A stretch of DNA of 12,886 bases from Octopus sinensis (Eukaryota). Made by a program: the position numbers and the translations under genes. Below the pieces are notes generated by a model. The model saw only the letters and a program-made list of their open reading frames with translations. It ran no database searches and was not told where the DNA came from. Location of the stretch: assembly GCF_006345805.1 (NCBI RefSeq), contig NW_021826474.1, forward strand, positions 1 through 12,886, written 5' to 3'. Below are positions 1,961-3,340 of the stretch, piece by piece; position 1 is the first letter of the stretch, and the number at the start of each line of letters is the position of its first letter.

Positions 1961-2148
1961 TTACATTTTATAAAGGGCTTGTAAAATAAATTACTTTGCC
2001 ACATACTGAACTCATTAGAAATAGCAGCCAAAAAAATTTTAGCCAAATTCTAATACTTAAAGAAAATTTCTCTCAGATAGTGCTTACTCAAAATAGCCCA
2101 CGAAGGTATGGGGGTAAAAACATTAAAAAATCACAAGTGCAAAGGTTA

Positions 2149-2210
2149 TTTGAGAACGTACGTTTCTAGATCAGCCAAATACAATTCGACATTTCTTTCG
2201 TCAGCCCAAA
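2149..2210 (-). ncRNA. type I hammerhead ribozyme motif (minimal, palindromic stem III)
   Basis: Minus strand: uuuggg CUGACGA a-aga-aau-gucgaa-uugua-uuuggc-uga-ucu-a GAAA cguacg UU cucaaa. Stem I uuuggg/cucaaa (6 bp, one G-U); stem II aga/ucu plus gucgaa/uuuggc; predicted cleavage after GUU. The base of stem II has an A-A mismatch. Confidence 0.72.
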
Positions 2211-2862
2211 ATTCCTTAATTCGGATTTGTAAACACTGAAAGTAGGAGCATACCTTTGGCGACTTTTCACCTCCGAAGATCTGTTCAGACTAACAGTGCC
2301 AACAAATTCAAAATATGCAAGCGAAGAATTTCTGCCCTCCCCTTTCCACCCACGTGGGCTAACCTAGCAACACCATAATTTTATCGGTGAAAACCGAAGC
2401 ATTAAACAGAGAGAAATGAATTATAATTTCAACAATTGAGGGTAAAATTAATAATTATTAATCAATTTCACCAAGTATTCAGTATGTAAAGGGACCATTT
2501 AAGCGAATCAAAATATTACATTTTATAAAGGGCTTGGTAAAATAAATACTTTGCCACATACTGAACTCATTAGAAATAGCAGCCAAAAAAATTTTTTAGC
2601 CAAATTCTAATACTTAAAGAAAATTTCTCTCAGATAGTGCTTACTCAAAATAGCCTTCGTGGGCTATTTTGAGTAAGCACTATCTGAGAGAAATTTTCTT
2701 TAAGTATTAGAATTGGCTAAAAAAAAAAGGGGAGGGCAGAAATTCTTCGCTTGCATATTTTGAATTTGGTGGCACTGTTAGTCTGAACAGATCTTCGGAG
2801 GTGAGAAAGTCGCCAAAAGGGTATGCTCCTACTTTCAGTGTTTACAAATCCGATTAAGGAAT

Positions 2863-2923
2863 TTTGGGCTGACGAAAGAAATGTCGAATTGTATTTGGCT
2901 GATCTAGAACGTACGTTCTCAAA
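2863..2923 (+). ncRNA. type I hammerhead ribozyme motif, inverted copy lacking one A of GAAA
   Basis: tttggg CTGACGA aaga...tcta GAA cgtacg TT ctcaaa; same as 2149-2210 except GAAA->GAA (mutation or homopolymer error). Confidence 0.6.
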
Positions 2924-3204
2924 TAACCTTTGCACTTGTGATTTTTTATGTTTGTACCCCCATACCTTCGTAGGCTATTTTGAGTAAGCACTATCTGAGA
3001 GAAATTCTTTAAGTATTAGAATTTGGCTAAAAAAATTTGTTTGGCTGCTATTTCTAATGAGTTCAGTAGTGTGGCAAAGTAATTTATTTTACTAAGCCCT
3101 TTATAAAATGTAATATTTTGAATTCGCCTTAAATGGTCCCTTTACATACTGAATACTTGGTGAAATTGATTAATAATTAATTAATTTTACCCTCAATTGT
3201 TGAA

Positions 3205-3340
3205 ATATATATATATATATATATATATATATATATATATATTATATATATATATATATATATATATATATATATATATATATATATAATATATATATAT
3301 ATATATATATATCTATATATATATATATATATATATATAT
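3205..3340. repeat. (TA)n microsatellite
   Basis: Read directly. Confidence 0.95.

What the first reader, a model, noticed from the sequence alone, without database searches (positions are those of the whole stretch)
1961..3206. ~555-bp ribozyme-bearing unit arranged as a partial tandem followed by an inverted copy
Seen: block order A-B-C-D-A, then a short inverted part of A, then inverted B-A-D, all bounded by (TA)n. The circular permutation (A-B-C-D-A) is what reverse transcription of a tandem or circular RNA template would leave, and each unit holds one hammerhead. Established: tandem and inverted pLTRs are typical of Penelope-like element insertions, and hammerhead monomers can be processed into circular RNAs (retrozymes). 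Inference: a retrozyme-like or pLTR-only element inserted with template switching. Transcription through it would also give ~385 bp of dsRNA, a plausible ADAR or siRNA substrate.
Basis: partly seen in the sequence, partly recalled or inferred. Interest (0 to 1): 0.7.

Follow-up and report, generated by a model that had tools for sequence, protein, structure and literature searches.

The report
Penelope-dependent hammerhead repeat, two-armed insertion
This is one copy of a young, non-coding repeat that carries a hammerhead-ribozyme motif and sits in a TA microsatellite as two back-to-back arms, each ending at a different fixed site; a borrowed Penelope-type reverse transcriptase likely made it by copying one RNA from both sides of the cut chromosome, and this kind of element is already known.

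Summary
Real, and of a known kind. Window 1958-3208 is one insertion of a young, dispersed, non-coding ~563-bp repeat (95 exact copies of its hammerhead motif). Two head-to-head arms lie in (TA)n. Block D is the Penelope 'tail': one arm ends without it (short end), the other with it (long end, ~94 nt further). Of 73 two-armed copies with both ends at a fixed site, 72 pair one short with one long end. All units and both arms of an insertion share one haplotype. Neither arm here can be a mirror copy of the other, which excludes a fold-back artefact or simple template switch. Both fixed ends sit beside an RNA stem with compensatory changes across sister families. The type I hammerhead has a palindromic stem III but A.A instead of G10.1-C11.1. 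The second motif has lost a core A and is inverted, so this copy cannot yield a circle. Best reading: a non-autonomous Penelope-dependent retrozyme-like element, primed twice on one tandem or circular RNA. Cleavage, circles, expression and the partner element are not shown. The scan reported this pattern before, in this genome and others.

The parts
1770..1957 (.). Left (TA)n-rich target microsatellite
   Evidence: 121 of 124 fixed 3' ends in the family sample have (TA)3 within 12 nt
1958..2655 (-). Left arm, 698 nt (1.24 units), RNA sense on the minus strand; its outer end is the short, tail-less site (unit position ~469), its inner end is unit position 325
2149..2210 (-). Type I hammerhead motif: stem I UUUGGG/CUCAAA, core CUGACGA (2204-2198), stem II closed by A.A, GAAAC-GUAC-GUU (2166-2155) with palindromic ACGUACGU; predicted cut between 2155 and 2154
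   Evidence: sequence
2422..2512 (-). Block D inside the left arm = the ~94-nt 'tail' between the short and the long end of the preceding unit
2640..2670 (.). Inversion centre: arms join over 2 nt of microhomology at a small imperfect hairpin; unit positions 320-339 are the commonest 5' truncation bin (14 of 128 ends)
2654..2725 (+). 72-nt piece (unit positions 317-388): fold-back extension or template jump, joined to the rest of the right arm in an A run
2726..3208 (+). Right arm proper (unit positions 77-563), RNA sense on the plus strand; its outer end is the long, tailed site
2863..2923 (+). Second hammerhead motif, lacking one A of the GAAA box (mutation or consensus error)
3062..3191 (+). 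Conserved RNA structure round the two fixed ends: 10-bp stem (3062-3072 with 3144-3153) whose loop holds the short site, then a hairpin (3159-3191) just before the long site
3205..3349 (.). Right (TA)n target microsatellite

Best explanation
This is one insertion of a non-coding, hammerhead-bearing ~563-bp repeat family, likely mobilised in trans by an endonuclease-bearing Penelope-like element (PLE), whose enzyme would nick both strands of a (TA)n target and prime two cDNAs on one tandem or circular RNA, one at each of two fixed start sites ~94 nt apart. Shown: dispersed young copies, (TA)n targets, two fixed 3' ends, one-short-one-long pairing, one haplotype per insertion, independent templating of the two arms here, a covarying stem at the two ends, and hammerhead covariation across families. 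Inferred: transcription, binding of the stem by a PLE protein (probably a dimer), double priming, read-through across unit borders, and joining of the two 5'-truncated cDNAs by microhomology (here with a 72-nt fold-back or jump piece). Untested: self-cleavage (probably weak and dimer-dependent), circle formation, and which PLE supplies the protein.
For: Copies: 144 matches among 40 scored of 1913 candidates; 95 exact copies of a 56-nt motif, control 0. Ends: of 83 elements in 81 loci, 51 are two-armed; 44 are short+long, 0 short+short, 0 long+long, 7 have one end elsewhere; single arms use both sites about equally (16 short, 13 long). Sister subfamilies, 40 loci: 28 short+long (one further compound case left out), 1 long+long, 0 short+short; 72 of 73, p 1.6e-20 against independent choice. 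Same template: 227 of 297 non-consensus letters are shared by the opposite arm, against 18% (maximum 34%) in 500 shuffles; 32 of 75 locus-private letters are shared; one diagnostic haplotype per locus. A simple fold-back of one cDNA fits only 6 of 42 loci; in 11 of 42, the window included, neither arm is contained in the other. Stem: z -3.5, 4 of 30 predicted pairs with two-sided change in 14 sequences, 97.9% paired against 26-46% when slid. Known PLE traits: tail on one end, inverted 5'-truncated copy, (TA)n bias (PMC8557442 passages); two internal start sites that bound the tail, both strands cut and extended, predicted dimer (PMC11167929). Intact RT+GIY-YIG PLE frames of 775-781 aa exist in this genome.
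Against: No autonomous element sharing sequence with the unit was found among 50 GIY-YIG loci and the hammerhead loci fetched; only 150 of 5029 GIY-YIG candidates were scored. The hammerhead lacks G10.1-C11.1, and core conservation within the subfamily is only borderline (4 of 427 against 458 of 19210, p 0.051). Sharing between arms could partly come from later gene conversion. The covariation counts come from related sequences, so they reflect a few events. In vitro the Anolis enzyme showed no strand difference in start site and did not need cleavage. No read spans this locus.
Confidence: 0.78

Rival explanations
1. One cDNA is made from the long site, folds back on itself (self-priming), and the returning strand is cut or resolved by the endonuclease at the short site (or the reverse), as proposed for Penelope palindromic junctions.
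For: It explains one haplotype per insertion and a one-sided tail. Near-mirror junctions are somewhat enriched (7 of 49 against 2.7 expected), and the window has one. Self-priming and endonuclease resolution are proposed in PMC3846280 and PMC8557442.
Against: 42 of 49 junctions are not mirror points. In 11 of 42 loci, the window included, neither arm is contained in the other.
Confidence: 0.12
2. The unit is only the terminal repeat (pLTR) of an autonomous PLE, and these are 5'-truncated stubs rather than a non-autonomous family.
For: Most PLE insertions are 5'-truncated, and retrozymes resemble pLTRs (bioRxiv 10.64898/2026.07.22.740005). The order hammerhead, short end, long end is also seen at the 3' end of coding PLE copies here.
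Against: Arms run through up to about four head-to-tail units with no coding sequence between them. No consistent non-TA sequence continues any arm in 81 loci. The unit has no long reading frame.
Confidence: 0.06
3. Assembly artefact (fold-back chimeric read) on a small, poorly polished contig.
For: The window is a whole unplaced 12.9-kb contig with excess indels. No contig of the 4 runs laid spans the inversion.
Against: The arms are not mirror images; the right flank is single-copy and unmirrored; the layout matches 43 other loci of the subfamily, most on chromosome-scale contigs.
Confidence: 0.03
4. DNA-level spread (satellite, MITE or Helitron-like), the hammerhead being a chance motif.
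For: Tandem arrays, apparent terminal inverted repeats, TA flanks; no Rfam hit.
Against: Fixed 3' ends with variable 5' truncation and unequal ends; 3453 core-plus-palindrome matches against 4 in the control; stem I covaries across families.
Confidence: 0.01

Closest known systems
Metazoan non-LTR retrozymes (Cervera and de la Pena 2020, PMC7229834: passages and Discussion read; Li et al. bioRxiv 10.64898/2026.07.22.740005: parts 1-3 of 5 read)
   Same: Non-coding, AT-rich tandem unit with one type I hammerhead; dispersed monomers to multimers; PLEs proposed as mobilisers; the preprint reports family consensus lengths of 51-972 bp.
   Different: Unit is longer than the 170-400 nt RNAs tested; stem II lacks G10.1-C11.1; insertions show the two-armed, one-tail PLE footprint, which the parts read do not describe for retrozymes; circles are not shown here; this copy has no two co-oriented motifs.
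Endonuclease-bearing PLE insertions with inverted pLTR and tail (Arkhipova et al. 2013, PMC3846280, passages; Craig et al. 2021, PMC8557442, passages)
   Same: Partial tandem plus inverted 5'-truncated copy, tail on one end only, AT-rich or (TA)n targets, microhomology junctions; pLTRs alone suffice for mobilisation in trans.
   Different: No reading frame; tail ~94 nt instead of 30-40; the one-sided tail is nearly strict here (72 of 73) rather than 'often' or 'optional'.
Poseidon PAc of Anolis (Frangieh et al. 2024, PMC11167929: parts 1-2 of 4 read, supplements not seen)
   Same: Hammerhead upstream of two internal start sites that bound the tail; AT-rich cleavage; both strands extended.
   Different: There the sites lie inside the coding sequence; here in a non-coding unit, in an AU-rich loop closed by a covarying stem. 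The parts read do not report pairing of the two sites within one insertion.
Minimal and palindromic-stem-III hammerheads of PLEs (Cervera and de la Pena 2014, PMC4209133: parts 1-2 of 4 read)
   Same: Type I topology, intact CUGANGA and GAAA boxes, palindromic positions 15.2-16.2, long stem II.
   Different: G10.1-C11.1, called highly conserved there, is A.A here (U.U or G.U in sister subfamilies, G-C in the 600-bp sister family).

Membership tests
Non-LTR retrozyme | Non-coding tandem repeat unit | tested here: met
   No long frame in six frames; head-to-tail arrays of up to about four units
Non-LTR retrozyme | Type I hammerhead in each unit | tested here: met
   the window's second copy is defective
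Non-LTR retrozyme | At least two consecutive co-oriented hammerheads (working definition of an active copy) | tested here: inconclusive
   Not met at this locus; met in 17 of 79 elements of the family
Non-LTR retrozyme | Self-cleavage and circular monomer RNA | not testable with these tools
   Only contigs of runs guessed to be RNA were available
Type I hammerhead ribozyme | CUGANGA, GAAA and NUH boxes in order | tested here: met
   2204-2155 minus; N7 and H17 are the positions that vary among relatives
Type I hammerhead ribozyme | Stem I closes the motif and covaries | tested here: met
   3.10 of 4 pairs in 21 representatives against 1.86 shuffled, 0 of 10000 shuffles as high; some representatives are related
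Type I hammerhead ribozyme | G10.1-C11.1 pair closing stem II | tested here: not met
   A.A in this subfamily; PMC4209133 calls the pair highly conserved
Type I hammerhead ribozyme | Stable stem III, or a palindrome allowing a dimer | tested here: met
   ACGUACGU duplex -9.8 kcal/mol; the monomer does not fold as a hammerhead at minimum energy
Type I hammerhead ribozyme | Match to an Rfam hammerhead model | tested here: not met
   None among 57 matches at E<=1
Endonuclease-bearing PLE insertion footprint | Partial tandem plus inverted 5'-truncated copy | tested here: met
   51 of 83 elements two-armed
Endonuclease-bearing PLE insertion footprint | Two fixed 3' ends bounding a tail | tested here: met
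   Unit positions ~469 and 563
Endonuclease-bearing PLE insertion footprint | AT-rich or microsatellite target | tested here: met
   121 of 124 fixed ends
Endonuclease-bearing PLE insertion footprint | Target-site duplication | tested here: inconclusive
   Cannot be read inside (TA)n; no empty allele in the genome
Autonomous PLE | RT plus GIY-YIG reading frame in the element | tested here: not met
Non-autonomous partner of a named PLE clade | Terminal sequence shared with a coding PLE | tested here: inconclusive
   None found in the loci fetched; sampling was small

The most novel reading that the evidence does not exclude
These insertions are the genomic record of a PLE dimer gripping one covarying RNA stem and starting one reverse transcriptase at each of two sites, one per target strand, on a single hammerhead-processed RNA circle that it laps repeatedly. 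That would tie retrozyme circles to PLE mobilisation and give a protein-free ~180-nt recognition element, conserved across at least three sister families, for testing it.
Probability: 0.35. Interest if true: 0.6.

Novelty: new member of a known kind. Interest (0 to 1): 0.33.

Why it matters
How PLEs make their tandem, inverted, one-tailed insertions is stated as open (PMC8557442), and PLE mobilisation of animal retrozymes is proposed but not shown. This family gives countable constraints: nearly strict pairing of the two start sites, one template type per insertion, no stop at the ribozyme site, and a covarying stem at the start sites. These can be tested in the existing in-vitro PLE system. 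The locus itself is an ordinary, probably inert copy.

Tried and rejected
Rfam: no hammerhead hit; the miRNA-type hits are microsatellites or the inversion hairpin. Six-frame translation of the unit: nothing coding. Search for an empty or allelic site with the right flank: only the window itself. Sequencing runs: no RNA holder listed on record. Contigs of two DNA-guess and two RNA-guess runs hold the family, including the long end against (TA)n, but none spans the inversion and they cannot show RNA ends or circles. ADAR signature: sense A>G 23 against T>C 28 among 223 private variants, p 0.78; this says nothing about editing of transcripts from inserted copies. Linear cleaved monomer as template: rejected, only 4 of 128 5' ends lie within 262-276, about what an even spread gives. 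Circle against uncleaved multimer: not separable; units within an arm are near-identical (median 1.0%), which fits both. Autonomous partner: not found; one fragment next to a sister-family copy (L280) looked coincidental. A hand-built monomer energy had a mis-set pair and is not used. Lunse et al. (PMC5785218) was not held, so its hammerhead variants could not be compared. Literature searches listed no paper on this family or on strict short/long pairing; subscription papers, repeat databases and the supplements of PMC11167929 were not seen and may hold either.

Full report
Observation. The window is a whole unplaced contig of a 2.72-Gb animal genome. I take the animal to be an octopus from recall of its repeats and from the wording of earlier scan notes; no call names it. 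The long arms differ by 4 substitutions and 18 gap columns, and short-read contigs lack several of the window's extra letters, so many indels are probably consensus errors.

A dispersed young family. The unit gave 144 matches among the 40 scored of 1913 candidates. A 56-nt stretch round the hammerhead has 95 exact copies, control 0. A majority sequence from 82 units is 563 bp, with median substitution 2.9%. The pattern CUGANGA..GAAACGUACGU occurs 3453, 152, 693 and 2265 times at spacings of 1-30, 31-35, 36-66 and 67-97 nt, with controls of 4, 1, 5 and 7. Among the listed matches are sister subfamilies 79-89% identical, a 600-bp family sharing the last ~190 nt at 68% and many unrelated decayed motifs. 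A ~570-bp family with an ACGCGU palindrome shares the same 3' region.

Architecture. Read in the hammerhead sense, copies have variable 5' ends and two fixed 3' ends: unit position ~469 (short) and 563 (long). Of 124 fixed ends, 121 abut (TA)n. Of 83 elements in 81 loci, 51 are head-to-head two-armed: 44 short+long, none short+short or long+long, and 7 with one end elsewhere; the other 32 are single-armed (16 short, 13 long, 3 other). Two of the 83 belong to sister families, and two of the 44 are compound; these four were left out's arm counts. In 40 loci of sister subfamilies the count is 28 short+long (one compound case dropped), 1 long+long and 0 short+short. Together that is 72 of 73, p 1.6e-20 against independent choice. 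The 600-bp family gave 3 short+long and no like pairs in 13 loci. The window fits the rule: the left arm (1958-2655) ends at the short site and the right arm (2654-3208) at the long site, so block D is the Penelope tail.

Not a mirror copy. The right arm holds unit positions 77-563 in one run, which the left arm lacks, and the left arm holds 1-76, which the right arm lacks. Neither can be copied from the other, which excludes a fold-back chimera and simple template switching. The right flank is single-copy. Family-wide, neither arm is contained in the other in 11 of 42 loci, and only 6 of 42 fit a plain fold-back. Near-mirror junctions are 7 of 49 against 2.7 expected, so some fold-back at the joining step is likely; the window's 72-nt piece at 2654-2725 may be one.

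One template per insertion. Opposite arms differ by a median 1.2% and tandem units by 1.0%, against 2.6% between loci. The opposite arm shares 227 of 297 non-consensus letters (18% in shuffles, maximum 34%) and 32 of 75 locus-private letters. Diagnostic haplotypes are uniform within loci and differ between them. Gene conversion after insertion is not excluded. Truncation does not pile up at the predicted cut site (4 of 128 ends) and arms cross it freely, so the template was a ligated circle or an uncleaved multimer; I cannot tell which.

Hammerhead. The motif at 2149-2210 (minus) has both core boxes, a GUU site, a 6-bp stem I and a palindromic stem III whose duplex is -9.8 kcal/mol. The monomer does not adopt the hammerhead fold at minimum energy, which fits the dimer-type PLE hammerheads (PMC4209133, parts 1-2 read; PMC6765202, passages). 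Stem I was not part of my search patterns, yet it pairs 3.10 of 4 in 21 representatives against 1.86 shuffled. Against activity: G10.1-C11.1 is replaced by A.A (U.U or G.U in sisters), Rfam has no hit, core conservation in the 39 loci chosen by whole-unit similarity is borderline (p 0.051), and in the preprint 8 of 9 tested frog dimers did not cleave. The second motif in the window lacks a core A and is inverted, so this locus cannot release a monomer; 17 of 79 family elements have two co-oriented motifs.

A conserved structure at the start sites. The last ~180 nt fold better than all 200 shuffles (z -3.5, one copy). In 14 sequences from the family and its sisters, 30 pairs are predicted; 4 show two-sided changes and several show G-U-type one-sided changes on the hammerhead strand. 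The 10-bp outer stem is 97.9% paired against 26-46% when slid. The short site lies in its loop and the long site just behind the next hairpin. The sequences are related, so the counts reflect a few events.

Mechanism. In vitro, the Anolis PLE protein cuts and extends both strands of AT-rich DNA, starts at two internal sites that bound the tail, is predicted to be a dimer, and does not need ribozyme cleavage (PMC11167929, parts 1-2 of 4 read). I infer that a PLE protein binds the stem, primes one cDNA at each site on opposite strands of a (TA)n target, reads back through one or more units, and that the two truncated cDNAs are joined by microhomology. Intact Neptune-like PLE frames of 775-781 aa with RT and GIY-YIG domains and (TA)n ends exist in this genome (the clade label rests on my recall of the zinc-finger linker). 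None shares sequence with the unit, so the partner is unnamed.

Comparison and novelty. Layout, tail and targets are described for PLEs (PMC8557442 and PMC3846280, passages). Non-coding hammerhead tandems are non-LTR retrozymes, with PLEs proposed as mobilisers (PMC7229834, passages and Discussion; bioRxiv 10.64898/2026.07.22.740005, parts 1-3 of 5). It works like a PLE-dependent retrozyme; membership is met on structure and open on cleavage and circles. Six literature searches listed nothing on this family or on strict short/long pairing, but a one-sided tail is already in print as a tendency. After I had formed this reading, the scan's notes showed the same pattern reported from this genome and from others; they are unchecked and add no support. 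A look-up by sequence found nothing.

Verdict. Real, explained, a new member of a known kind; interest 0.33. The reusable results are the 72-of-73 pairing, the proof at this locus that both arms were templated separately, and the covarying stem at the start sites.

Noticed in passing
window 10310-10872: A second, unrelated two-armed element in (TA)n with its own hammerhead motif at 10671-10725 (+; stem I CAC/GUG, palindrome ACGAUCGU, GUA site); the left arm has about 70 nt more than the right; relatives in L225, L236, L260, L261.
   Followed up: partly
window 8703-9296 (-): Reverse transcriptase fragment (Pfam RVT_1, E 7e-11); looks like an RTE-type LINE by recall.
   Followed up: partly
window 9276-9992, also about 270-520, 704-930, 3350-3570 (-), 5416-5650: SINE-like repeat, with 3.6 tandem copies of a 184-bp part at 9323-9992; earlier scan notes describe a tRNA-headed Penelope terminal repeat in this genome, which this may be.
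   Followed up: no
window 1548-1700 and 1263-1390: Repeat fragments beside (TA)n; the first contains a CCGACGAAGAG..GAAGCGTG stretch on the minus strand that resembles a decayed hammerhead end seen intact in L226.
   Followed up: no
L192-L199: Young coding PLEs with 775-781 aa frames; one family has a tandem period of about 5.9 kb with a second long A-rich frame upstream, CCAAT-rich terminal repeats, a hammerhead-like motif with a UUGAUAA core and a ~25-nt optional tail.
   Followed up: partly
L154:2399-4101; L229-L243: A 600-bp sister family with a canonical G-C-closed hammerhead forms arrays of ten or more units and in L154 is joined directly to an arm of a sister subfamily.
   Followed up: partly
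L038 and L088: Compound insertions: a whole two-armed element duplicated in tandem (L038) and one fused with a sister-subfamily element (L088).
   Followed up: no
family sample: Arm lengths cluster at about 115-140 nt for both short-site and long-site arms, which suggests preferred stop or joining points.
   Followed up: no
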